Below are positions 2,649-52,257 of a stretch of DNA of 64,000 bases, one piece after another. The position numbers and the translations under genes are program-made. The notes under the pieces were generated by a model. It was not told the origin of the DNA and ran no database searches. It saw only the letters and a list, made by a program, of their open reading frames with translations. Numbering within the stretch: the stretch's first letter is position 1; each line of letters begins with the position of its first letter. Source of the stretch: Escherichia coli (lineage in GTDB: Bacteria > Pseudomonadota > Gammaproteobacteria > Enterobacterales > Enterobacteriaceae); the NCBI RefSeq assembly GCF_048403405.1, contig NZ_CP183129.1; one strand, given 5' to 3'.

Positions 2649-5550
<2,902 letters not shown>

Positions 5551-7001: not shown

Positions 7002-8105
7002 TCAATGCGGTGTACGCCCGGTGTTAAAACGTTTTTCCAGATGTTGGCTATAACGTGACATGCTGAAACAGAAGATCCAGTAGATCAGCGCGGCGAAAAC
7101 ATACCCTTCCGTCGACATACCCAACCAGGCGGGATCAACGGTTGCCTGCTGAACGCTACTGAAAAGATCGAACAACCCGATGATGATCACCAGGCTGGTA
7201 TCTTTGAAAAGTGCGATGATGGTATTTACCAGCCCAGGAATCACCAGCTTCAACGCCTGTGGCAGAATAACCAGCCCCTGGGTTTTCCAGTAACCCAACG
7301 CCAGCGACTCTGCCGCTTCATATTGCCCTTTAGGCAGCGCCTGTAATCCGCCTCGCACGACTTCCGCAACATATGCTGACTGAAACAGGATCACGCCAAC
7401 CAGCGCGCGGATCAATTTGTCGATACTGGTGCCTTCTGCCATAAACAACGGCAGCATGACCGAAGACATAAACAGAACGGTAATCAGCGGTACACCGCGC
7501 CAGAACTCGATAAAAATGACCGATAAGATACGCACAATCGGCATATGGGAGCGGCGACCTAACGCCAGTAAGATCCCCCACGGCAGCGCCCCCGCAATCC
7601 CAACTGATGCAATAATTAAAGTTAGCGTCAGCCCGCCCCATTGCCGGGTTTCAACCCGCTCAAGACCAAGAAACCCGCCATACATCAGCCACCAGACAAT
7701 CAGTGGGTAAATCACCGCCCATACCGCAATATAGCGACCGCGATGCGGGAGTATTTTCCAGAACATTGGTGCGATCGACACAAGCCCAATCAGTAATGCG
7801 AGGTTAATTCGCCAGCGTTGGTCGTGTGGGTAAAGCCCATACATAAACTGACCAAATCGTTCGTGGATGAAGACCCAACAGGCACCGGCTTTTGTGCAGT
7901 CGGTACGCGTTGAGCCAACCCAGTTAGCCTGCAAAAATGCCCAGTTCAGCAACGGTGGAATCAGTTCCCACATCAACCATATGCAGCCAATAGTCAGCAG
8001 GCTATTGCTCCAGCTGGAGAACAGATTTTTTCGCACCCACACCATCGCGCGGCTTGAGTTATGGCTCGCCGGGCGCGGGGGATGAGACAGCAATACTTTT
8101 GTCAT
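7002..8105 (-). CDS. yhdY: Amino-acid ABC transporter permease
   Basis: 367 aa hydrophobic protein with permease EAA-like loop ([14 protein letters not shown]); operon position. Confidence 0.9.
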
Positions 8106-16893: not shown

Positions 16894-17778
16894 TTACTTT
16901 GCAATGAGATCGGGGTCAACTTCGCTTAACCTGCTTCGTTTTGACAGGTTGCCGGTCTTTCTTTTTTTCACTTTCGCCAGTTCTTCCGCAGAGTAATGCG
17001 ACGTGACATCCAGCCGTCGAAGCCCCATTTTGATGTACTCGCTGTTGATCTCAATACCAATGAATTTTCGCCCGCTGGCGACGGCTACGGCACCGGTAGT
17101 AAAGCTACCGGCAAACGGGTCGAGAACGATATCGCCTGGGTTGGAAGAGGCGAGAATAATGCGTTTCAGTAAGGCTTCCGGTTTTTGCGTCGGGTGATTC
17201 TCATATTCATCCATTAAATAACGCACGCGCGGAAAATCCCAGACGTTACCCGGTACTTTTTGATGATTGTAAGGCTGTGGAGGATTTTTGCGATAATCGA
17301 TTAACGCACGCTGCGATCCGGTTTTGGCTTCTACCAGAATAGCATCACCGTTGAACGTGTAGTTCTTTGCGTCTTTCACCATCATCAGGATGGGTTCGTA
17401 CATGGAGCCGTAGTGTTTTTTCGCCTGCACTCCAGAACTGTCATATGACCAGACGATGCGACTTTTGATGGTAAAAAGCTTGCGGCACTGGAGATCGATA
17501 AAGGGCATGTTTTCCGTACTGTTCATGATGTACATGCTGCCCTGCTTTTTCAGAACGCGGTGGCACTCTGCAATCACTTCAAACAGCCAGTCGATAAACA
17601 GATCTTCTTTCCAGGCTTCGATCAGACCATCAAAATTTTTACCGATGTTATACGGTGGGTCGGCAAAGATCAGATCGACACTTTCGGCGGGGATCTTTTT
17701 AAGTTCGGTTAATGCATCACCCTGGATGATGGTCTTTGCTTCATTACCAAATCGGGTCGGTTCACATCCTGTTCTCAT
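16894..17778 (-). CDS. yhdJ: DNA adenine (N6) methyltransferase
   Basis: 294 aa from MRTGCEP; DPPY catalytic motif (IFADPPYNIG) and SAM-binding region; K-12 neighbour of fis. Confidence 0.92.
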   Translation of the reverse strand: MRTGCEPTRFGNEAKTIIQGDALTELKKIPAESVDLIFADPPYNIGKNFDGLIEAWKEDLFIDWLFEVIAECHRVLKKQGSMYIMNSTENMPFIDLQCRKLFTIKSRIVWSYDSSGVQAKKHYGSMYEPILMMVKDAKNYTFNGDAILVEAKTGSQRALIDYRKNPPQPYNHQKVPGNVWDFPRVRYLMDEYENHPTQKPEALLKRIILASSNPGDIVLDPFAGSFTTGAVAVASGRKFIGIEINSEYIKMGLRRLDVTSHYSAEELAKVKKRKTGNLSKRSRLSEVDPDLIAK

Positions 17779-17800
17779 GGTCACTCCCTTTGTGACACCT

Positions 17801-17880
17801 ATAAAAAAGGCGCTTCCCCATGCCGAGTAGCGCCTTTTTAATCAAGCATTTAGCTAACCTGAATTAGTTCATGCCGTATT
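17801..17880. repeat. attL: 80 bp direct repeat copy carrying a duplicate of the fis 3' end and terminator hairpin
   Basis: ataaaaaaggcgcttccccatgccgagtagcgcctttttaatcaagcatttagctaacctgaattagttcatgccgtatt, identical to 33086-33165. Confidence 0.9.
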
Positions 17881-18007
17881 ATCAAAACCTATGTTTCTTA
17901 CAGTTTGTCATGGTTCGTTAGTGTTTATATAACTTATTGAATAAAATGATTAATGTTGTTTCTTTAGTTTACCTTTGTTCATTTCTGTTCATAGGGTAAT
18001 ATTAAAG

Positions 18008-18029
18008 TGTGCAGTCAGTGGTGCAGTCA
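18008..18029 (+). repeat. Candidate integrase arm-type site (left copy); internal tandem GTGCAGTCAG x2
   Basis: tgtgcagtcagtggtgcagtca also present at 33059-33080; sits 27 bp upstream of the int start codon. Confidence 0.55.
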
Positions 18030-18055
18030 GTTTTCAATATGAATTAAGGTTTTCT

Positions 18056-19279
18056 ATGGCTGGAGGAACGAACAAATTAAGCGATACATCGTTGCGTAAG
18101 ATGCTGGGGAGGGAAATCGATAGAGATAGATTTTATGCTGACGGTGATGGATTGAGTATCAAGGTGTCAAAAATTGGCGTTCTTACTTGGTATTTCTCTT
18201 TCCGGATTGGTGGGCGTGAATCGTATTCACAGCGTGTTAAGCTTGGAAACTACCCGGATCTTTCTCTGAAAGCTGCGCGCGAGAAACGTGAACAGTGTCG
18301 AGCATGGCTTGCTGAAGGTAAAAATCCAAAGCATCGGTTAAATGTGGCAATACATGAAACACTCAAACCAGTGACGGTAAAAGAGGCTCTGGATTACTGG
18401 ATCAGAGAATACGCCGTTTACAAGCGCACGAATGTTGATAAACACATTGAGCAACTGAGGAAGCATATTTTCCCCTATATAGGTGATTATCCGTTATCAA
18501 TGTGCGAAACCCGGCATTGGCTGGAGTGTTTCGCTAGAGTAAGGAATGACGCTCCAGTGGCAGCTGGTTATTTGCTGCAGATGTGTAAGCAGGCTCTGAA
18601 GTTTTGCCGCGTACATCGTTATGCGGTTAGCAATGCTCTGGATGACCTGACTATCGATGATGTTGGTAGAAAACAGAATAAGCGCGATAGGGAACACAGC
18701 AGTCAAGAGTTAGCAGATATTTGGCAGGAATGTTCAGGTAAGAAATTTAAACCATACTATTCATCGTTGTTGCGTCTATTGGTGGTGTTTGGATGTCGAA
18801 CCCAGGAGCTTCGGTTGTCACGTATTACAGAGTGGGATTTAAAGGATTGGATCTGGACAGTGCCTAAAGAACACAGCAAAGGCGGAGAGAAGATATTGCG
18901 CCCTATTCCAGTGGTAATACGCCCATTCATCCAACAGCTTATAGAGCAACACAAAAACTCAGGTCTTTTGTTGGGTGAAATAAAGAAACCAGAAGCTGTC
19001 AGCCAATGGGGGAGGATGATATATAAGCGTCTGGGGCATATTGAATCGTGGACACTTCACGACCTGCGCAGGACGTTTGCTACCACACTAAATAACATGG
19101 GGGTTGCACCACATGTTGTTGAACAGCTTCTCGGTCACACATTAGGTGGTGTAATGGCCATATACAATCGTAGCCAGTACTTACCAGAAAAACTAGACGC
19201 TCTAAATAAATGGATGGAACGGCTTGAGGTTATTTCTGGTCAGTATTCAAATGTAAAAATATTGAAGGTAGCGAAATGA
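18056..19279 (+). CDS. int: Tyrosine integrase (P4-like, N-terminal arm-binding domain)
   Basis: 407 aa from MAGGTNKLSD with RBS aagg; C-terminal catalytic residues in HDLRRTFAT and GHTLGGVMAIYNRSQY. Confidence 0.9.
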   Translation: MAGGTNKLSDTSLRKMLGREIDRDRFYADGDGLSIKVSKIGVLTWYFSFRIGGRESYSQRVKLGNYPDLSLKAAREKREQCRAWLAEGKNPKHRLNVAIHETLKPVTVKEALDYWIREYAVYKRTNVDKHIEQLRKHIFPYIGDYPLSMCETRHWLECFARVRNDAPVAAGYLLQMCKQALKFCRVHRYAVSNALDDLTIDDVGRKQNKRDREHSSQELADIWQECSGKKFKPYYSSLLRLLVVFGCRTQELRLSRITEWDLKDWIWTVPKEHSKGGEKILRPIPVVIRPFIQQLIEQHKNSGLLLGEIKKPEAVSQWGRMIYKRLGHIESWTLHDLRRTFATTLNNMGVAPHVVEQLLGHTLGGVMAIYNRSQYLPEKLDALNKWMERLEVISGQYSNVKILKVAK

Positions 19280-20013
19280 AAAAGATAAGCATCCCTGAGC
19301 GTATATATTATCCATTGCCTGAAGCAGCAAAGAAGCTGGGATGTACGCTTAATGATATATATCATTTTGCTGCTATAGGTGCTTTGAATATTTCTGTTTA
19401 TTTTCCAAACTGTCATCCATGTAAATCGCTAGTTATACCAAAATCATTAGTTGAAAATATTGATGTTGATTCAGGTGGGATGTTGCAAGGGGATCGCTGG
19501 GTAATTACAGGGATGAAGCCTGTTGGTAGCGATTTTGAATGGGTAAATTATTTTGGTGTGGCTTCTTATCTTGCAAAGAATTTTTGCGGTTTCTTCTATC
19601 TAAATCGGGAAAGTTTTTCTGAACTTGAATTTATTGGCAATGATGCAAGGATAGTATCATCTTTTTTTTCAACTCGTCCTGAATCAGAAAACTGGGAATG
19701 TCAAATTATGAGTGATGGGGCTATTGAGATCGACAGAAGGTTTTTATGTGTAATGGCTAAGGATTTGGAGCATATCAAAGATGTTGGAACCATGCCTGGA
19801 AGAAAAATGGGAGAATCGCCAAAAACTCTTGCGAAGAAAGCTGAGTTGATCCCTGCATTAATCAAACTAATTCCAGAAATGGATGATATAGATATTGGAA
19901 CTGCTCCAGTTGCTAAAGTGATCGCTGTTTTAGAGGCTGCGGCAGCGATGAAAGGGGTGTTTCTTCCCGCAACAGATAAGAATACGTGGGCTAAATACTT
20001 AGGGCGAACGTGA
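19276..20013 (+). CDS. Hypothetical accessory protein, AT-rich, between int and alpA
   Basis: 245 aa ORF whose start overlaps the int stop (ATGA); no motif I recognise; Ala-rich C-terminus. Confidence 0.55.
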   Translation: MKKISIPERIYYPLPEAAKKLGCTLNDIYHFAAIGALNISVYFPNCHPCKSLVIPKSLVENIDVDSGGMLQGDRWVITGMKPVGSDFEWVNYFGVASYLAKNFCGFFYLNRESFSELEFIGNDARIVSSFFSTRPESENWECQIMSDGAIEIDRRFLCVMAKDLEHIKDVGTMPGRKMGESPKTLAKKAELIPALIKLIPEMDDIDIGTAPVAKVIAVLEAAAAMKGVFLPATDKNTWAKYLGRT

Positions 20014-20102
20014 TATCACATATAAAATATGTGATATCACCTAAATATTCTAAGCATATTATCAATATGCTCTCGAACGATAATAAACGAGGGCATATCC
20101 AT

Positions 20103-20324
20103 ATGAGCAAAGTTAAATCATCGCAAGACCAATTTGATCGCATCATTCGTGAGGAGGAATGCCGACGCCTTACCGGTATTTGCCGAACGACGCGTTATAT
20201 GATGGAAAGGAAAGGGGTGTTTCCAGCCCGTCGTCAGTTGGGGGCTCGTTCTGTCGGTTGGTTGCTGTCTGAGGTTAATGATTGGCTTGAACGTCAACCC
20301 AAAGCACAACTGAAATCGGCGTAA
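20103..20324 (+). CDS. alpA: AlpA-family transcriptional regulator (excisionase-like HTH)
   Basis: 73 aa from MSKVKSSQDQ with RBS gaggg; RLTGICRTTRYMMERKGVFPARRQLGARSVGWLLSEVNDWL matches the AlpA family pattern. Confidence 0.8.
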   Translation: MSKVKSSQDQFDRIIREEECRRLTGICRTTRYMMERKGVFPARRQLGARSVGWLLSEVNDWLERQPKAQLKSA

Positions 20325-20673
20325 GGTGAGTTATGGTATATAAAACAAAGGCGACCGGGGGCGGTCGCCAATGGATACACACTAAACTTGAACGCATCAC
20401 CAACAATGCCACATTTGCGGCTGGTGGGCAATGTGATCAGTCAGATTTGGTTCGTTCCAAGGTTTGCAACGAGAGCTTTTTCCTGTGCTCTTTAAGGAAT
20501 TTCTCAAGAGCAAACGAACAAGGTGCGAATCTTTCTGATTCATGTTCATGCGCTATATTTTTGCGTCGTCTCTTACGAGTTGGTGATGGTGTTTTGGTTG
20601 ATTCTGTGTCGCTCATGGTGCTGTCCTGTAAAGCAATGCGCCTGCGTTCCTCAAACTATGGCGCTGATAGTGG

Positions 20674-20979
20674 CTATTCCTGCCCTTTGACCTTGCGTCG
20701 CTGGAGTTCTTCACGCGCGACGGTGACGAGTTGCCCGATCTCCTCGGCGGCTTTGACTCCGATTTTTTCAACCTGCGCTAGGGCATCGAGCGAAGAAACC
20801 AGGAGGTTTTCTCCGCTTCCTTCTGCCTGGCGGCGGGCGATTTCACCGCGCATGGCGGTTACTATGAATCCGGCGTTGCTTTCACCGTCCAGTTTTACGG
20901 ATTCCATGCCTTCAATAACATCATGCGGGATCCGAGCTGTCAGTGATTGTGATTTTGCGTTTTTTGAACCTGTAGCCAT
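20674..20979 (-). CDS. Putative small DNA-binding regulator, possibly ribbon-helix-helix
   Basis: 101 aa from MATGSKNAKS with strong RBS gagga; LTARIPHDVIEGMESVKLD resembles an RHH strand-helix; divergent from the downstream module. Confidence 0.5.
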   Translation of the reverse strand: MATGSKNAKSQSLTARIPHDVIEGMESVKLDGESNAGFIVTAMRGEIARRQAEGSGENLLVSSLDALAQVEKIGVKAAEEIGQLVTVAREELQRRKVKGQE

Positions 20980-20994
20980 CTGTAATCCTCTCAA

Positions 20995-21175
20995 TGAAAG
21001 TGTAAGACAATATACACATAAAAAGTCTTACATAAAAGCATTGACATGTAAGCCACCTATAAATAAAGTTACTTACACCTTGTTAATGCAAGGTGCAGAA
21101 ACGACGAAACCCCGCACTGTAGGAGCAGTAACGGGGCTTCTAACCACCAACGATAGCAAGATTATCGAGGCAGCT
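20995..21175. promoter_or_regulatory. Divergent promoter region with an array of TGTAAG/CTTACA half-sites
   Basis: TGTAAG at 21001 and 21047, CTTACA at 21027 and 21072, forming two inverted-repeat pairs; TTGACA at 21041. Confidence 0.45.
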
Positions 21176-21379
21176 ATGAGAAATCATACCATACACCCGC
21201 AAGGGCGGGACTCGTACAACCTGAATAAATACATCTGGCGTTTTATCGCCCTGAGCACCGCACAACCGCGCGTGATTCACATCGTGGCCACCAGCGAACA
21301 GGAAGCACGCCAGCAATCCCCGGCTGGCTGCGTGATGGTATTCGCCGCCCGCATTCGTCAGGGGGGGTGCCATGCCTGA
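21176..21379 (+). CDS. Small hypothetical protein (67 aa)
   Basis: ATG at 21176 preceded by RBS gagg; retained portion of the 348-aa track ORF, which is otherwise antisense to the regulator gene. Confidence 0.4.
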   Translation: MRNHTIHPQGRDSYNLNKYIWRFIALSTAQPRVIHIVATSEQEARQQSPAGCVMVFAARIRQGGCHA

Positions 21380-21692
21380 TATGTCAAATTACCAGTACCT
21401 GATTAATCCGCATTTTAACTGTGAGCATGATATTGCTAAAAAGGTTTATTCCGCTGCGGATGGGGCTACTGACAATATATCAATGGCTGTTGCGTCAATT
21501 GGTAGCCTGATGTGGCATGCGTCAGAAAATGAGGAATATGACGCAAAGGCCATGCGCATTGATATGGGTAATATCGGTTTGTTACTGGCAATGCTTGGAC
21601 ATTTTGATATTTCGTTACGGTGCACCATTGAAAATGCCACAGATGCATTAAATGCCATAAAGAAAGCGAATACTGATTCAAATCGGGGATAA
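21372..21692 (+). CDS. Hypothetical protein (106 aa)
   Basis: ORF in the replication module, co-directional with primase; no recognisable motif. Confidence 0.5.
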   Translation: MPDMSNYQYLINPHFNCEHDIAKKVYSAADGATDNISMAVASIGSLMWHASENEEYDAKAMRIDMGNIGLLLAMLGHFDISLRCTIENATDALNAIKKANTDSNRG

Positions 21693-24196: not shown

Positions 24197-24457
24197 ATGC
24201 CGATTCTGACGCATGAAATAAACAATTATTTTGATCAATTCGGACTTCATGATATTGCTTCAATGCCTACCACTCAGTACCGTCAGGCCCTTGCAAATGG
24301 TGGTTTACTGTGGATTGATCATCATGATTTTATTCGTAGCACGCTATCAGATGAAATCCTTGCAACAAATCAAGAGCAGGTTAATGTTTTGATTGAGCAT
24401 TTGCAGGTTTTAAGGAAAAAAATGCCACTACCTCCTAATTGGATGAGTGAGAAATGA
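24197..24457 (+). CDS. Hypothetical protein (86 aa)
   Basis: ATG at 24197 with RBS aggaag; convergent with the two-gene operon. Confidence 0.55.
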   Translation: MPILTHEINNYFDQFGLHDIASMPTTQYRQALANGGLLWIDHHDFIRSTLSDEILATNQEQVNVLIEHLQVLRKKMPLPPNWMSEK

Positions 24458-24459
24458 AT

Positions 24460-24490
24460 TATATGGCCTGGCTCTTTGCCAGGCCATATA
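24460..24490. terminator. Bidirectional terminator: perfect 13 bp inverted repeat between convergent stop codons
   Basis: tatatggcctggc-tctttg-ccaggccatata located exactly between the stops at 24455-24457 (+) and 24492-24494 (-). Confidence 0.75.
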
Positions 24491-24491
24491 C

Positions 24492-25001
24492 TCAAAGCAT
24501 TGTTAACAAGGCGGACGCACCAGCACCAACGAGACTGGCTACCGTACTATTATTTAGTAAATCCTTAAGCAAATTTTTTGCCTGAGGATCTTGTGATTGA
24601 GAAACTTTTTCAACAAGTTCAGTTATGCTGAGATTTACAATAAGATTGTTATGCTCACCGAGTTGAACCTGTGTACCGGATATGTTACCAATGTTAAATG
24701 TATTTTGGCTAGATTGTTTTGGTTTATGTTCATTAGCAGTCAGATTCTCGACTTTTAATGTAAGCATGTGAGGGTGATTAGTACCAACATTGAGTGTACC
24801 TCCTGGTAAAAATGACATATCAATTACTTTTAATATTATTTCCCCCTTCCCTAGTTTTTGAGTGATTTCATCTCCAATATTAATATCTGGTTCTTCAGTA
24901 TAAGGGATTAGCACTTTTTTTTCAGCTGAGTTTCTTTTCCCCTTGTATTCAACTCCTGCGATTGTGAATTTTTCTGGATATGCCATGACGTTAAGATCCA
25001 T
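24492..25001 (-). CDS. Candidate system gene B: 169-aa protein with hydrophobic Gly/Ala-rich C-terminal tail
   Basis: ATG (rc of 24999-25001) with RBS gaggag 7 nt upstream; 27 bp after gene A; C-terminus STVASLVGAGASALLTML; shares a C-terminal module with gene A. Confidence 0.7.
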   Translation of the reverse strand: MDLNVMAYPEKFTIAGVEYKGKRNSAEKKVLIPYTEEPDINIGDEITQKLGKGEIILKVIDMSFLPGGTLNVGTNHPHMLTLKVENLTANEHKPKQSSQNTFNIGNISGTQVQLGEHNNLIVNLSITELVEKVSQSQDPQAKNLLKDLLNNSTVASLVGAGASALLTML

Positions 25002-25030
25002 TATGTTGCTCCTCGTGATCGCTTTTGCGT

Positions 25031-25807
25031 TTAACTAGTAGATTTGAAAGTGTATTTTGTCTGTGTGTTAAGGTTTGATATTAGAGCTTCATAGTTTTCT
25101 TTACTCAGTAAGTTTTTTGAGTAGGCCTTCTTAAGAAGGTTTTTTGAGAGAGTAATAATTTCTTTTTCACCAGTTGATGCAATTTTTGAGAAGAACTCAG
25201 AGAGCTCTTGTATATTAATATTGTTATTTGTACCAAGTTGTACGTATTGGCTATTTACAGTAGCTATGTTGAATATGTTTTGTTTTGGATGCGTTTTTTT
25301 TAGCTTTTCAATTTCAGCATGTTCTATGATTTTTTGAGAGATACTTTCAATATAACCACTAACGTCTTTTTTTTCTGGGAAGGAAAACCCATCACCTCTT
25401 AATATTTTATCTGTTTCGGCCATTTCATAGTAAAGCCTGCGAATCATCACAAGTAATAGTAATTTAGCCTCCTCGATTGACTCCTCTATTGAGAATTGAC
25501 ATTCAATTGCTAACGCGGAGGTCTGCTCTAAAACAATTTCTGAGTTATTTTCAATGTAAGGATTGATAAAACCATTCCAAAAAATTTGAACGGGAGTACC
25601 TTTAAATGCCAAACCTTGATAGCATATTTCTGTTCCATCATATGCAGTAACTTTCATGGGGGGGCCTGCATTGAAAAATCGCCATCTATGAATCAGTTTG
25701 GTTAATCTTTCGTCAATCTCCCGAACTAATTTATAAGTCCTTTTGAACAATGGGGATGGTCGCATCCCAGGAACAGCAAGAATTTCTTTTGTCACTTGAA
25801 TCTCCAT
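25031..25807 (-). CDS. Candidate system gene A: 258-aa protein, no recognisable motifs
   Basis: First gene of the two-gene minus-strand operon; Lys/Asn/Ile-rich, AT-rich coding sequence; segment KQNIFNIATVNSQYVQLGTNNNINIQELSEFF is paralogous to gene B. Confidence 0.7.
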   Translation of the reverse strand: MEIQVTKEILAVPGMRPSPLFKRTYKLVREIDERLTKLIHRWRFFNAGPPMKVTAYDGTEICYQGLAFKGTPVQIFWNGFINPYIENNSEIVLEQTSALAIECQFSIEESIEEAKLLLLVMIRRLYYEMAETDKILRGDGFSFPEKKDVSGYIESISQKIIEHAEIEKLKKTHPKQNIFNIATVNSQYVQLGTNNNINIQELSEFFSKIASTGEKEIITLSKNLLKKAYSKNLLSKENYEALISNLNTQTKYTFKSTS

Positions 25808-33085: not shown

Positions 33086-33165
33086 ATAAAAAAGGCGCTT
33101 CCCCATGCCGAGTAGCGCCTTTTTAATCAAGCATTTAGCTAACCTGAATTAGTTCATGCCGTATT
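33086..33165. repeat. attR: 80 bp direct repeat overlapping the last 17 nt of fis and its terminator
   Basis: Identical to 17801-17880; the fis stop codon (33149-33151) lies inside the repeat. Confidence 0.9.
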
Positions 33166-51400: not shown

Positions 51401-52257
51401 CGACAACGGAGCGCATTAACTTCCGTGGCTGGCCGGACGCCCAAATACGATGCGCAGAGTGCTGGTTCTGGGGGCAAAAATTCGGGCGCATTGACAGTGA
51501 TATCACCATTTCTGGCAATACATTAACGCTGACTAATGGACTGATTGATACTGGTTTTTCGCGGCTCACTGCCGATGGTGAATGGGTTAACAATCCGGGA
51601 AATGAACGCACCTCGCTGAAAGGAAAACTGCGTGGGCAGAAAATTGATGCCGCCGCAGAATTTTTTGGTGTCACGACGCCCATACGCCAGTCGTCATTTA
51701 ATGTGGATTACGATTTACACTGGCGCAAAGCACCCTGGCAACCAGATGAGGCGACGTTGAATGGCATCATTCATACTCAACTGGGCAAAGGCGAAATTAC
51801 CGAAATCAATACCGGACATGCCGGGCAATTGCTGCGCTTATTGAGCGTTGATGCACTGATGCGTAAGCTGCGTTTTGATTTCAGAGACACTTTTGGCGAA
51901 GGGTTCTATTTTGACTCCATTCGCAGCACCGCGTGGATTAAAGACGGCGTTATGCACACTGACGACACGCTGGTGGATGGCCTGGAAGCGGATATCGCCA
52001 TGAAAGGGTCGGTAAATCTGGTGCGTCGCGACCTGAATATGGAAGCGGTTGTCGCACCAGAGATTTCTGCGACGGTGGGCGTGGCTGCGGCTTTTGCGGT
52101 TAACCCCATTGTTGGCGCGGCAGTGTTTGCAGCCAGTAAAGTGCTGGGGCCGCTGTGGAGCAAAGTCTCCATTTTGCGCTATCACATTTCGGGTCCGCTG
52201 GACGATCCGCAAATCAACGAAGTGTTGCGCCAACCGCGTAAAGAAAAAGCGCAATGA
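48457..52257 (+). CDS. yhdP: AsmA-like large envelope protein (inter-membrane phospholipid transport family)
   Basis: 1266 aa with N-terminal TM anchor MRRLPGILLLTGAALVVIAALLVSGL; synteny. Confidence 0.92.
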   Translation: MRRLPGILLLTGAALVVIAALLVSGLRIALPHLDAWRPEILNKIESATGMPVEASQLSASWQNFGPTLEAHDIRAELKDGGEFSVKRVTLALDVWQSLLHMRWQFRDLTFWQLRFRTNTPITSGGGNDSLEASHISDLFLRQFDHFDLRDSEVSFLTPSGQRAELAIPQLTWLNDPRRHRAEGLVSLSSLTGQHGVMQVRMDLRDDEGLLSNGRVWLQADDIDLKPWLGKWMQDNIALETAQFSLEGWMTIDKGDVTGGDVWLKQGGASWLGEKQTHTLSVDNLTAHITRENPGWQFSIPDTRITMDGKPWPSGALTLAWIPEQDVGGKDNKRSDELRIRASNLELAGLEGIRPLAAKLSPALGDVWRSTQPSGKINTLALDIPLQAADKTRFQASWSDLAWKQWKLLPGAEHFSGTLSGSVENGLLTASMKQAKMPYETVFRAPLEIADGQATISWLNNDKGFQLDGRNIDVKAKAVHARGGFRYLQPANDEPWLGILAGISTDDGSQAWRYFPENLMGKDLVDYLSGAIQGGVADNATLVYGGNPQLFPYKHNEGQFEVLVPLRNAKFAFQPDWPALTNLDIELDFINDGLWMKTDGVNLGGVRASNLTAVIPDYSKEKLLIDADIKGPGKAVGPYFDETPLKDSLGATLQELQLDGDVNARLHLDIPLNGELVTAKGEVTLRNNSLFIKPLDSTLKNLSGKFSFINGDLQSEPLTASWFNQPLNVDFSTKEGAKAYQVAVNLNGNWQPAKTGVLPEAVNEALSGSVAWDGKVGIDLPYHAGATYNVELNGDLKNVSSHLPSPLAKPAGEPLPVNVKVDGNLNSFELTGQAGADNHFNSRWLLGQKLTLDRAIWAADSKTLPPLPEQSGVELNMPPMNGAEWLALFQKGAAESVGGAASFPQHITLRTPMLSLGNQQWNNLSIVSQPTANGTLVEAQGREINATLAMRNNAPWLANIKYLYYNPSVAKTRGDSTQSSPFPTTERINFRGWPDAQIRCAECWFWGQKFGRIDSDITISGNTLTLTNGLIDTGFSRLTADGEWVNNPGNERTSLKGKLRGQKIDAAAEFFGVTTPIRQSSFNVDYDLHWRKAPWQPDEATLNGIIHTQLGKGEITEINTGHAGQLLRLLSVDALMRKLRFDFRDTFGEGFYFDSIRSTAWIKDGVMHTDDTLVDGLEADIAMKGSVNLVRRDLNMEAVVAPEISATVGVAAAFAVNPIVGAAVFAASKVLGPLWSKVSILRYHISGPLDDPQINEVLRQPRKEKAQ

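What the first reader, a model, noticed from the sequence alone, without database searches (positions are those of the whole stretch)
19276..20013. AT-rich accessory gene wedged between integrase and alpA
A 245-aa ORF whose start overlaps the int stop (ATGA) lies where PICI-type elements usually go straight from int to the regulatory module. It is visibly AT-rich, has no motif I recognise, and occupies a second known cargo position of satellites, so it may be an additional defence or host-interaction gene, or a regulator of excision.
Basis: inference. Interest (0 to 1): 0.55.

Follow-up and report, generated by a model that had tools for sequence, protein, structure and literature searches.

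The report
Satellite gene with operator before alpA
The AT-rich gene wedged between the integrase and alpA of this E. coli phage satellite is a real, undescribed three-part protein that always travels with its own pair of DNA boxes in front of alpA, so it is most likely a switch that controls when the satellite wakes up, not loose cargo.

Summary
A 245-aa ORF (19276-20013) overlaps the int stop (ATGA), has 38.6% GC and matches no Pfam, NCBIfam or PADLOC family. It lies in a 15.3-kb capsid-forming PICI-like satellite inserted at the 3' end of fis.

The protein ("X") belongs to an uncharacterised Gammaproteobacterial family. It has 88 sequence representatives and over 300 AFDB50 fold relatives. 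None occur in phage or plasmid collections. In every locus that contained the upstream gene, X lies between a P4-type integrase and an alpA-like gene.

X has three parts:
- a conserved N-terminal Xis/MerR-like winged helix;
- a hypervariable, mosaic middle domain;
- a conserved C-terminal helical domain.

All 18 examined loci with the same C-terminal type carry two GTGA-WW-TCAC dyads 20-22 bp apart. Box 1 overlaps the X stop codon. Box 2 lies a near-fixed distance upstream of a covarying hairpin that sequesters the alpA ribosome-binding site. Lineages with other C-termini lack these boxes; two of the seven carry different box pairs at the same 21-bp phasing.

A near-identical int/alpA island carries DUF6387 and no boxes, so the boxes travel with X.

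Best reading (confidence 0.5): a signal-responsive DNA-binding regulator that gates alpA, the satellite's master activator. Defence cargo, excision factor and RNA hairpin remain rivals. Nothing is tested experimentally.

The parts
17801..17880 (.). attL: left copy of the 80-bp direct repeat (3' end of fis plus its terminator) that bounds the island
   Evidence: An exact 80-bp repeat lies at 17801-17880 and 33086-33165. The flanking genes are yhdJ and fis.
18056..19279 (+). int: P4-type tyrosine integrase, 407 aa
   Evidence: phrog_1 integrase, E=3e-60. RefSeq CDS. Arm-DNA-bind_3 plus Phage_integrase domains in orthologues.
19276..20013 (+). X: 245-aa ORF of the finding, an uncharacterised three-module protein translationally coupled to int (ATGA)
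19288..19440 (+). X residues ~5-55: conserved N-terminal Xis/MerR/AlpA-like winged helix (LPERLYYPLxEAAxxLGCxxxDxxH). Cys23 and His30 are invariant and Asp27 nearly so
19441..19785 (+). X residues ~56-170: hypervariable, beta-rich middle domain; proposed sensor
19819..20010 (+). X residues ~182-245: conserved C-terminal three-helix domain ending ...TDKNTWAKYLGRT ('type A'); proposed reader of the boxes
   Evidence: Helices at 182-196, 212-225 and 235-241. Mean identity is 45%. The domain type co-varies with box sequence across lineages. There is no sequence match to Pfam or PDB.
20010..20019 (.). Box 1: palindrome GTGATATCAC, containing the X stop codon (G-TGA-TATCAC)
20031..20040 (.). Box 2: second GTGATATCAC, 21 bp start-to-start from box 1
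   Evidence: In a 10-locus alignment the fully invariant columns all lie in the two boxes.
20063..20068 (+). AT-rich hexamer CAATAT, 22 nt after box 2 and abutting the hairpin. Putative -10 of the alpA promoter (inference); there is no -35 match
   Evidence: This is my reading of the sequences. The simple promoter scan did not call it.
20067..20096 (+). alpA leader hairpin: ATGCTCTCG / 12-nt loop / CGAGGGCAT. The 3' arm contains the GAGG ribosome-binding site
   Evidence: It appears in the predicted MFE structure; the whole 20000-20110 fragment, which also contains the box palindrome, folds with z=-6.1. 96% of cells are paired and 6 of 9 pairs show changes on both sides across 6 loci.
20103..20324 (+). 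alpA: AlpA-family regulator, 73 aa; master activator of Gram-negative PICIs
   Evidence: phrog_2790 excisionase/regulator, E=2e-18. RefSeq CDS. The role is taken from PMC6092414.
33086..33165 (.). attR: right copy of the 80-bp repeat

Best explanation
X is a sequence-specific DNA-binding regulator belonging to the satellite's own control circuit. It is made together with the integrase in the quiescent island. This follows from the ATGA translational coupling and is inferred.

Proposed mechanism (all steps inferred):
1. The conserved C-terminal helical domain binds, probably as two dimers on one face of the helix, to the two GTGA-WW-TCAC dyads. These start at X's own stop codon and sit a fixed ~22 nt upstream of the alpA leader.
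2. From there X gates transcription of alpA, the master activator of the satellite life cycle.
3. The hypervariable, recombining middle domain is the input module. It most likely senses a helper-phage protein, as Stl does in staphylococcal islands.
4. The universally conserved N-terminal Xis/MerR-like domain is the output or partner-binding module.
5. The leader hairpin or terminator keeps read-through from int-X from expressing AlpA. Only transcripts started at the X-controlled promoter, inside the hairpin, would be translated.

The sign of regulation is unresolved. The fixed spacing, with box centres at about -40 and -61 and no -35 element, leans towards signal-dependent activation. A repressor or roadblock is equally compatible with PICI precedent.

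Shown here: gene reality, synteny, modular architecture, box conservation and co-variation, cassette behaviour and hairpin covariation.

Inferred: DNA binding by X, promoter position, sensing and sign.
For: 1. Synteny. In every locus that contained the upstream gene, X lies between a P4-type integrase and an alpA-like gene. It overlaps int by ATGA in all but L016 and L025. This holds from 100% down to about 28% identity, in both cf-PICIs and classical PICIs, at several att sites and in several genera. L024 is cut just upstream of X, so its upstream gene could not be identified.

2. Box conservation.
- All 18 type-A loci examined protein-first carry two GTGA-WW-TCAC boxes 20-22 bp apart.
- Box 1 overlaps the stop codon, or in L082 starts 2 nt after it.
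- The spacers are completely unconserved. In a 10-locus alignment the fully invariant columns all lie in the boxes.

3. Co-variation with the C-terminal domain, not the N-terminal one.
- Type-B C-termini lack the boxes (L011/L091, L017, L018).
- L025, with another C-terminus, has two CCCGAATTCGG palindromes 21 bp apart.
- L016 has two AAACTCTCC direct repeats 21 bp apart.
- The N-terminal motif is the same in all of these.

4. Cassette test. L007 and L008 lie at the same att site with Int 96% and AlpA 91% identical. The segment from the last int codons to the alpA hairpin is swapped: X plus boxes in one, DUF6387 without boxes in the other. The boxes therefore belong to X, not to AlpA or Int.

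5. Dyad symmetry is kept by double changes (GTGAATTCAC in L004, GCGATATCGC in L089), while the central WW varies freely.

6. Geometry. The hairpin begins 22-29 nt after box 2 in 15 of the 18 loci. In L012, L019 and L086 the reported fold adds outer pairs that start earlier.

7. Fold. The N-terminal domain resembles Xis, RDF, AlpA and MerR winged helices. The model is confident.

8. Constant-variable-constant architecture, with mosaic alleles sharing a 100%-identical C-terminus plus boxes.

9. The literature leaves room for this. No repressor is known for Gram-negative PICIs, alpA is switched on by the helper phage, and the mechanism is unknown (PMC6092414; PMC11773190).
Against: - No experiment or DNA-protein model links X to the boxes.
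- The boxes are physically adjacent to the X 3' end, so their co-occurrence with the type-A C-terminus could be hitch-hiking by descent.
- Two identical palindromes are also mutually complementary and could act as an RNA or DNA hairpin. In L090 the two boxes differ yet stay complementary. In the window the palindrome extends to 14 bp. In a P2-like region the same pair is followed by a T-run, like a terminator.
- Neither terminal domain matches a DNA-binding family by sequence.
- The predicted N-terminal 'recognition' helix has no basic residues.
- The -10 assignment is my own reading. It was not called by the promoter scan, and the AAT may simply be the base of the hairpin stem.
- Islands lacking X, including the characterised EcCICFT073 and apparently EcCIEDL933 (not among the hits), are inducible. 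X is therefore not essential to the general PICI mechanism.
Confidence: 0.5

Rival explanations
1. X is free-standing accessory cargo of the 5' hot spot: an anti-phage or host-interaction protein expressed with int in the quiescent island. The variable middle domain recognises phage components. The boxes serve something else, or only tune X's own mRNA.
For: - Published work states that PICIs carry immune systems at their 5' or 3' ends (PMC11364771).
- The slot shows presence, absence or replacement among near-identical islands.
- The gene is AT-rich with low GC3, like the pri-adjacent accessory genes.
- The middle domain evolves fast and is mosaic.
- Distribution is patchy: 18 and 55 of 5426 E. 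coli genomes.
Against: - There is no PADLOC hit and no enzymatic or effector domain.
- A pure cargo gene does not explain lineage-specific box pairs held at 21-bp phasing and at a near-fixed distance from the alpA leader.
- It does not explain the invariant position and, in most loci, translational coupling to int across about 28-100% identity.
- The family is absent from phage and plasmid collections, where defence genes usually also circulate.
Confidence: 0.2
2. The two boxes are not a protein-binding site. They form an RNA or DNA hairpin at the end of the int-X transcript that acts as a terminator, insulator, processing site or stabiliser. X's function is then unrelated to them and remains open.
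For: - The boxes are mutually complementary in every locus.
- The window version extends to a 14-bp stem with a 3-nt loop.
- In L090 the boxes GTGAAATCAC and GTGATTTCAC keep perfect complementarity through changes in both.
- In L045 the same pair is followed by a T-run after an unrelated gene.
Against: - The arm sequence is essentially invariant instead of co-varying, while everything around it is scrambled.
- Each arm is itself a palindrome, which a hairpin does not require.
- Several lineages have changes that break inter-box pairing but keep or tolerate dyad symmetry: L004 pairs 7 of 10, L080 pairs 8 of 10, and L089 box 2 is GCGATATCGC.
- No U-tract follows box 2 in the X loci.
- L016 has direct, non-complementary repeats at the same 21-bp phasing.
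Confidence: 0.12
3. The boxes are a real operator, but they are read by another protein: AlpA itself (positive autoregulation), a host factor, or a helper-phage regulator. X does something else.
For: - AlpA is a known positive autoregulator in EcCICFT073 and EcCIMP1.
- The box geometry suits an activator.
- Nothing directly ties X to the DNA.
Against: - A 91%-identical AlpA, with identical downstream genes, functions in an island without the boxes.
- A scan of 2.9 million viral contigs for the box pair found it only next to X genes in enterobacterial satellites. The other hits were unrelated: a gut phage repeat array, coding repeats and one P2-like terminator-like site. There is therefore no sign of a helper-phage operator being mimicked.
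- Box identity changes with the X C-terminal type.
Confidence: 0.1
4. X is a recombination directionality factor or architectural cofactor of the integrase. Its N-terminal Xis-like domain would help assemble the excisive or integrative intasome.
For: - The top structural matches are excisionases and RDFs: Pukovnik Xis, RdfS and the GIsul2 AlpA-family excisionase.
- X is translationally coupled to int.
- X co-inherits with int and alpA in E. coli.
Against: - The same integrase (96% identity) works with an unrelated DUF6387 gene in the slot.
- A 62%-identical integrase uses the same att site with no gene there.
- The only conserved cis sites lie about 2 kb from att and are absent near attL and attR.
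- X evolves much faster than Int: 36-54% identity against 81%.
- X is three times the size of known RDFs.
- alpA is the factor shown to be needed for excision in related PICIs.
Confidence: 0.08

Closest known systems
SaPI Stl / Gram-positive PICI Rpr master repressors
   Same: - Satellite-encoded DNA-binding regulator placed next to int and transcribed with it.
- Conserved DNA-binding part plus a highly variable part that diversifies between islands.
- Operator sites lie in the short region controlling the gene that starts the satellite cycle.
- The proposed input is a helper-phage protein.
   Different: - No sequence or fold relationship. Stl uses a Cro/CI-type HTH; X has an Xis/MerR-like N-terminal winged helix and an unclassified C-terminal helical domain.
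- The target gene alpA is co-directional, not divergent.
- The sign of regulation is unknown.
- Present only in a subset of Gram-negative PICIs and cf-PICIs.
- Nothing has been tested experimentally.
AlpA / Xis / MerR-type winged-helix proteins (Pfam HTH_17 PF12728, Phage_AlpA PF05930)
   Same: - A few family members reach HTH_17 weakly by sequence.
- Encoded in the same int-alpA module.
   Different: - 245 aa with two extra domains, instead of 60-80 aa.
- The window protein matches no Pfam profile.
- The predicted recognition helix lacks basic residues and carries conserved Cys, Asp and His.
- Box identity follows the C-terminal domain, not this one.
5' accessory (immune) region of PICIs
   Same: - Same position just after int.
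- AT-rich.
- Present, absent or replaced among otherwise near-identical islands.
   Different: - No known defence domain.
- Carries a dedicated conserved cis element aimed at alpA.
- Position and, in most loci, coupling to int are conserved across the whole family.
DUF6387 (PF19924) proteins
   Same: - Alternative occupant of exactly the same slot, with the same ATGA overlap with int.
- Also adjacent to alpA in ICEKp258.2.
- Also uncharacterised.
   Different: - No detectable homology (hhalign probability 1%; phmmer found nothing).
- No GTGATATCAC boxes downstream.
Fold-back inhibition of read-through expression in IS10/IS50 transposase genes (recalled from general knowledge, not tested)
   Same: A hairpin sequesters the ribosome-binding site in transcripts that enter from upstream. 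Transcripts from the gene's own promoter start inside the hairpin and escape it. This is proposed here for the alpA leader.
   Different: The alpA transcription start is not mapped. In about half of the related loci the hairpin also looks like an intrinsic terminator.

Membership tests
Capsid-forming PICI (context of the gene) | int, alpA and primase, plus own major capsid, protease, portal, connector, HNH, TerS and TerL. No tail or lysis genes. About 15 kb with a specific att site. | tested here: met
   RefSeq annotation of the 100%-identical region in strain D8 lists exactly these genes. PHROG and NCBIfam hits agree. An 80-bp att repeat bounds 15.3 kb. Induction by a helper phage was not testable.
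HTH_17 / AlpA / excisionase / MerR winged helix | Significant match to the Pfam profile (PF12728, PF05930 or PF00376) | tested here: not met
   The window protein has no Pfam hit at E<=10. Across the family, 3 of 28 N-terminal segments reach HTH_17 at E<=0.1, best 2.5e-4, and 1 reaches MerR at 0.015.
HTH_17 / AlpA / excisionase / MerR winged helix | beta-alpha-alpha-beta winged-helix fold of about 50 residues | tested here: met
   [not shown]
HTH_17 / AlpA / excisionase / MerR winged helix | Small single-domain protein (AlpA/Xis), or wHTH plus coiled-coil dimeriser (MerR) | tested here: not met
   The protein has 245 aa and two further domains: a beta-rich middle and a three-helix C-terminus.
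Stl/Rpr-type satellite master repressor | Cro/CI-type HTH (HTH_3) DNA-binding domain | tested here: not met
   No HTH_3 or related Pfam hit in any of 36 members.
Stl/Rpr-type satellite master repressor | Next to int and co-transcribed with it; operator in the regulatory intergenic region; variable sensor domain | tested here: met
   ATGA overlap with int. Conserved box pair between X and alpA. Variable, mosaic middle domain. The divergent-promoter layout of Stl is not present.
Stl/Rpr-type satellite master repressor | Represses the satellite and is relieved by binding a helper-phage protein | not testable with these tools
   Needs reporter, EMSA and interaction experiments.
Known anti-phage defence systems | Match to a PADLOC model or a recognisable effector domain | tested here: not met
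   No PADLOC hit at E<=0.1. No Pfam hit. No PDB fold match beyond the wHTH.
Known anti-phage defence systems | Located in a variable accessory hot spot of the mobile element | tested here: met
   The slot is filled by X, by DUF6387 or by nothing in related islands. The 5' end of PICIs is a reported immune hot spot (PMC11364771).
DUF6387 (PF19924) | Match to the Pfam profile or profile-profile similarity | tested here: not met
   X has no Pfam hit. hhalign of A1 against the L008 DUF6387 protein gives probability 1%. The L008 protein itself matches PF19924 at 2e-30.
Recombination directionality factor | Binding sites adjacent to the att core; specific partnership with its integrase | tested here: not met
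   The only conserved sites lie about 2 kb from attL and are absent near either att copy. A 96%-identical Int occurs with an unrelated gene in the slot.

The most novel reading that the evidence does not exclude
X is the missing helper-phage sensor of Gram-negative phage satellites. It would be a functional analogue of Stl built from unrelated domains. Its hypervariable middle domain would bind a helper-phage protein, and through the two dyad boxes it would switch alpA, and hence the whole PICI or cf-PICI cycle, on or off. The mosaic alleles would then encode helper specificity, and DUF6387 would be a second, unrelated solution to the same task.
Probability: 0.3. Interest if true: 0.8.

Novelty: new variant of a known kind. 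Interest (0 to 1): 0.62.

Why it matters
How Gram-negative PICIs and capsid-forming PICIs sense their helper phage is an open question. The founding paper states that no global repressor is known and that the inducer of alpA is unidentified (PMC6092414).

This finding gives a concrete candidate component for a subset of these satellites:
- a protein family with no annotation;
- a defined 31-bp target;
- a defined variable domain;
- natural allele swaps at one chromosomal site.

Each of these can be tested with standard reporter, EMSA and transfer assays.

Even if the regulatory reading is wrong, the work defines a widespread uncharacterised family. It has over 300 AFDB50 clusters, none in phages or plasmids, and it marks the int-alpA junction of satellites. 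That could improve satellite annotation.

It also reveals a covarying alpA leader hairpin that probably insulates the master activator from integrase transcription.

Tried and rejected
Searches that found nothing:
- Pfam, NCBIfam, PADLOC and PHROGs on the whole protein.
- Pfam on 36 family members.
- Pfam and PDB-sequence profiles of the C-terminal domain alone.
- PDB-sequence profile of the N-terminal domain alone. Pfam on the N-terminal segments gave only weak HTH_17 and MerR hits.
- Foldseek against PDB: no hit below E=0.38.
- A PDB sequence profile of the family: only a chance lipocalin match at E=0.63.
- Rfam on 17700-21500: nothing above threshold.
- tblastn against 50,697 phages and 72,556 plasmids: no match.
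- A literature search for the RefSeq protein accessions: no paper.

Ideas rejected:
- X related to DUF6387. hhalign and phmmer found no relationship.
- The gene in the same slot of the characterised EcCIMP1 is a relative. EcCIMP1_002 is a small protein about a tenth the size of UvrB, with no stated link.
- An X homologue in the prototype EcCIEDL933. EDL933 and Sakai are not among the 55 E. coli genomes with the O157-type allele.
- The boxes mimic a helper-phage operator. A scan of IMG/VR for the box pair found enterobacterial hits only beside X genes. The roughly 40 other hits are an unrelated gut-phage repeat array, and two are coding repeats.
- The boxes are a CRP site. The half-site spacing is wrong (my own comparison).
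- The boxes are an intrinsic terminator in the window. No U-tract follows them.

Technical dead ends:
- The GTDB representative scan with the wide alignment failed for lack of conserved stretches. With the narrow alignment it found only 2 loci.
- RNAalifold on an automatic alignment of the alpA leader gave no structure because of misalignment. It was replaced by a hand-trimmed alignment with pair counting.
Full report
**1. Context**

The window is an E. coli chromosome segment: rrn operon, yhdWXYZ, acrFE, acrS, yhdU, yhdJ, then an island, then fis-dusB-prmA. It is 100% identical to strain D8 across the queried ORF (hit H1).

The island is bounded by an exact 80-bp direct repeat at 17801-17880 and 33086-33165. 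The repeat duplicates the 3' end of fis and its terminator.

The island is 15.3 kb and encodes the following:
- int, the ORF of the finding, and alpA;
- a YlcI/YnfO gene, an Icd-like gene, DUF4222 and a D5/P4-type primase;
- three AT-rich small genes;
- an HK97-type capsid, protease, portal, connector, HNH, TerS and TerL, with no tail genes.

This is the gene set of a capsid-forming PICI as described for EcCIEDL933 (bioRxiv 10.1101/2022.09.08.507074).

**2.

- The ORF runs 19276-20013 and encodes 245 aa. Its ATG overlaps the int TGA, giving ATGA.
- GC is 38.6% and GC3 is 28.9%. The values for int, alpA and the window are 44.3%, 49.1% and 50.1%.
- It matches no Pfam family even at E<=10, and no NCBIfam or PADLOC model. 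There is one weak PHROG of unknown function over residues 5-52.
- It is a real gene. Full-length homologues down to about 28% identity exist.
- An AGGTG-like ribosome-binding site inside the end of int and the ATGA overlap are conserved.
- AlphaFold2 with a 17-sequence alignment gives mean pLDDT 83.9.

**3. Distribution**

- The word-indexed search of 5.8 billion proteins found 17 clusters, all Enterobacterales and all 'hypothetical'.
- The exhaustive HMMER search of 1.84 billion representatives found 88 with E<=1e-3.
- Foldseek against AFDB50 found 302 matches with E<=1e-3. The 50 listed are nearly all uncharacterised proteins (three carry generic or doubtful names), and every named organism is a Gammaproteobacterium: Enterobacterales, Aeromonas, Vibrio, Pasteurellaceae.
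- There is no homologue in 50,697 phage genomes or 72,556 plasmids.
- Only 2 of 100,044 GTDB species representatives matched the peptide patterns.
- In 5426 complete E. coli genomes the window allele occurs in 18, always with the same int and alpA.
- A 36-41%-identical allele (36% by BLASTP; 41% by local alignment), typical of O157:H7, O145, O103 and O121 strains, occurs in 55 genomes.

**4. Position is invariant, presence is not**

In every locus where the upstream gene was present on the contig, X lies between a P4-type integrase and an alpA-like or HTH_17 gene. It overlaps int by ATGA in all but L016 and L025. L024 is cut just upstream of X, so its upstream gene could not be identified, and its downstream gene has no Pfam match.

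These loci cover:
- E. coli at three att sites (fis, rcnR, cspD/clpS);
- Klebsiella michiganensis, Kosakonia, Serratia and metagenomes;
- both cf-PICIs and classical PICIs.

L016 even has two tandem paralogues.

The slot is nevertheless replaceable:
- At the rcnR site, islands with 96%-identical Int and 91%-identical AlpA carry either X or an unrelated DUF6387 protein. The swapped segment runs from the last codons of int to the hairpin just before alpA.
- The DUF6387 allele is present in 50 E. coli genomes.
- At the fis site, another satellite with a 62%-identical Int has no gene in the slot.
- Within E. coli, DNA homology of the window island to other islands begins right after alpA.

**5. 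Anatomy of the protein**

The model has the following parts:
- a beta-alpha-alpha-beta unit (residues ~10-55);
- a beta-rich middle (~56-170);
- a disordered linker (171-181, pLDDT below 50);
- three helices (182-241).

Across 36 homologues the mean pairwise identity is 47% for the N-terminal part, 21% for the middle and 45% for the C-terminal part.

At the rcnR site three alleles (L007, L022, L023) share a 100%-identical C-terminal domain, but their middles are unrelated. The megablast hits show the same mosaic at the DNA level. X also diverges much faster than its neighbours. Against the K. michiganensis and Kosakonia islands, Int is 81-82% identical, AlpA 71-76% and X 54% and 36%.

The representatives fall into at least two C-terminal types, plus rarer ones, all with the same N-terminal motif LPERLYYPLxEAAxxLGCxxxDxxH:
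- type A ends ...T(D/H)xxTWxKYLGR(K);
- type B ends ...PPVxGxTLxxWLKxVELDY...

**6. The cis element**

Immediately at the end of X lie two copies of the palindrome GTGATATCAC, at 20010-20019 and 20031-20040. They are 21 bp apart start to start. The X stop codon lies inside box 1.

Conservation across type-A loci:
- All 18 distinct type-A loci obtained protein-first have this pair.
- The spacing is 20-22 bp and the spacers are completely unrelated.
- The C-terminal tails differ in length, yet box 1 still overlaps the stop codon. In L082 it starts 2 nt after the stop.
- In a 10-locus alignment the fully invariant columns all lie in the boxes.
- Variants define the consensus GTGA-WW-TCAC. The centre varies freely (TA, AT, AA, TT).
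- Two variants keep self-palindromy through double changes: GTGAATTCAC and GCGATATCGC.

The boxes are absent from:
- type-B loci (L011/L091, L017, L018);
- the DUF6387 island;
- the empty-slot island.

Two divergent lineages with other C-termini have different pairs at the same 21-bp phasing right after the stop codon:
- L025 has two CCCGAATTCGG palindromes;
- L016 has two AAACTCTCC direct repeats.

So box identity follows the C-terminal domain, while the N-terminal motif stays constant.

A pattern-first scan of 2.9 million viral contigs found the 11-nt-spaced pair next to X genes in eight satellite-sized contigs. Otherwise it appeared only in unrelated settings:
- a gut-phage array of TGTGATATCA repeats between two RHH-like genes;
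- two coding tandem repeats;
- one P2-like region where the pair precedes a T-run.

**7. Relation to alpA**

Downstream of box 2 every island, with or without X, has a hairpin ending a few bases before the alpA ATG. Its 3' arm contains the GAGG/AGGAG ribosome-binding site.
- In the window the arms are 20067-20075 and 20088-20096.
- On six hand-trimmed sequences, 96% of cells pair and 6 of 9 pairs show changes on both sides. Only 1 of 500 shuffles reaches this, and slid controls reach 35-55% paired. The structure was derived from these same sequences, which inflates the contrast.
- In about half of the loci the hairpin is followed by a T7 run, so it looks like a terminator. The window has no such run.
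- The hairpin starts 22-29 nt after box 2 in 15 of the 18 type-A loci. In L012, L019 and L086 the reported fold adds outer pairs that start earlier.
- An AT-rich hexamer ending in AAT (CAATAT, TAGAAT, CAGAAT, CATAAT...) sits about 22 nt after box 2 at the base of the stem.

If that hexamer is a -10 element, the consequences would be:
- the boxes are centred near -40 and -61;
- there is no -35 element;
- transcription would start inside the 5' arm.

This is my reading. The simple scan did not call it. Under that reading, read-through transcripts from int-X would carry the full hairpin and be terminated or untranslatable. Transcripts from the box-controlled promoter would be translated.

**8. 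Interpretation**

The most economical explanation is that X binds its own adjacent box pair through the C-terminal domain and thereby gates alpA. The variable middle would be the signal input and the invariant N-terminal winged helix the output or partner module.

This fits what is known. alpA is the activator required for induction, excision and transfer of Gram-negative PICIs and cf-PICIs. Its transcription depends on the helper phage by an unknown route, and no repressor is known.

I put this at 0.5. The sign is open. The fixed geometry and missing -35 favour signal-dependent activation, while PICI precedent favours repression.

Weaknesses:
- There is no binding evidence.
- The boxes are physically linked to the X 3' end.
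- Palindrome pairs can also be hairpins, as in L090, the window's 14-bp extension and L045.
- Neither terminal domain matches a DNA-binding family by sequence.
- The N-terminal 'recognition' helix has no basic residues.
- X-less islands are inducible.

Rivals:
- Defence or host-interaction cargo, 0.2. This is supported by the variable slot, the AT-richness and the literature statement that PICI 5' ends carry immune genes. It does not explain the cis element.
- RNA or DNA hairpin, 0.12.
- An operator read by another protein, 0.1. The L007/L008 contrast argues against this.
- Excision cofactor, 0.08. The same Int pairs with unrelated or no partners, and no sites lie near att.

**9. Novelty and verdict**

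I found no paper describing this family or the box pair. In kind, it is a satellite-encoded regulator with a variable input domain and an operator before the master switch. That makes it a new variant of the Stl idea, built from unrelated parts in Gram-negative satellites.

It is computationally well-defined and directly testable. Its function is inferred, not shown.

Noticed in passing
window 20067-20096 (and the equivalent position in L004, L007, L008, L011, L012, L014, L017-L019, L080-L090): A hairpin lies immediately 5' of the alpA start codon, and its 3' arm contains the ribosome-binding site. It is conserved in islands with X, with DUF6387 and with type-B X. Compensatory changes occur in 6 of 9 pairs. 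In about half of the loci it is followed by a T7 run, like an intrinsic terminator. It probably insulates alpA from int read-through.
   Followed up: partly
window 24197-25807: Three AT-rich ORFs (34-38% GC) lie between the primase and the capsid gene: 86 aa on the + strand, and 169 aa and 258 aa on the - strand. This is the pri-adjacent accessory region reported as an immune hot spot (PMC11364771). They hit only PHROGs of unknown function. The two minus-strand proteins share phrog_5789. None of the three has a PADLOC or NCBIfam hit, and Pfam, run only on the 258-aa protein, found nothing.
   Followed up: partly
window 17801-17880 and 33086-33165: An exact 80-bp direct repeat, covering the 3' end of fis and its terminator, marks the ends of the island. 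A different satellite (L009) has a 62%-identical integrase and a VirE-type primase but no X. It uses the same yhdJ/fis site.
   Followed up: partly
L008 7046-7900 (E. coli ST80, rcnR site): A DUF6387 protein (PF19924, E=2e-30) occupies the same int-alpA slot with the same ATGA overlap. It is present in 50 of 5426 E. coli genomes. DUF6387 is also adjacent to alpA in ICEKp258.2 of K. pneumoniae (PMC10763509). It may be a functional analogue of X, but this was not tested.
   Followed up: partly
window 19342-19365 (X residues 23-30): Cys23 and His30 are invariant in the N-terminal alignment, and Asp27 is invariant or nearly so. They are spaced i, i+4 and i+7 on the predicted second helix of the N-terminal winged helix, which carries no basic residue. 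This may be a metal or partner-binding face rather than a DNA-reading helix.
   Followed up: no
L016 811-2379: Two tandem X paralogues follow the integrase. Both end ...PDKxTWSKWR..FR. Downstream are two AAACTCTCC direct repeats 21 bp apart.
   Followed up: partly
L025 1652-1683: A distant X relative (P0094) with a different C-terminus is followed by two CCCGAATTCGG palindromes 21 bp apart, upstream of an HTH_17 gene. The architecture is the same, with a different box sequence.
   Followed up: partly
L011 ~7785-7800, L017 ~3755-3770, L018 ~1955-1970: Type-B X genes contain a palindrome GTGGGAATTCCCAC (imperfect in L018) inside their last 45 nt of coding sequence, and have no intergenic boxes. 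It could be their operator or merely reflect the conserved YVGIPT peptide.
   Followed up: no
L027 5540-5660 (about 40 similar IMG/VR contigs of 35-60 kb): A gut phage family carries an array of six TGTGATATCA repeats between two ribbon-helix-helix-like genes. The core motif is the same, but the context and host type are unrelated.
   Followed up: partly
L045 2165-2195: In a P2-like prophage region the exact box pair (11-nt spacer) follows an ORF6N-type gene by 33 nt and precedes a T-run, like an intrinsic terminator. There is no X or alpA nearby. This is unexplained and keeps the hairpin reading of the boxes alive.
   Followed up: partly
window 20333-21379: A 348-aa ORF on the + strand overlaps the annotated YlcI/YnfO (- strand) and Icd-like genes. 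RefSeq does not annotate it. It is probably a chance ORF.
   Followed up: no
window 51497-51506: A third exact GTGATATCAC lies far outside the island. About 1.3 matches per window, allowing up to one mismatch, are expected by chance. It is probably chance.
   Followed up: no
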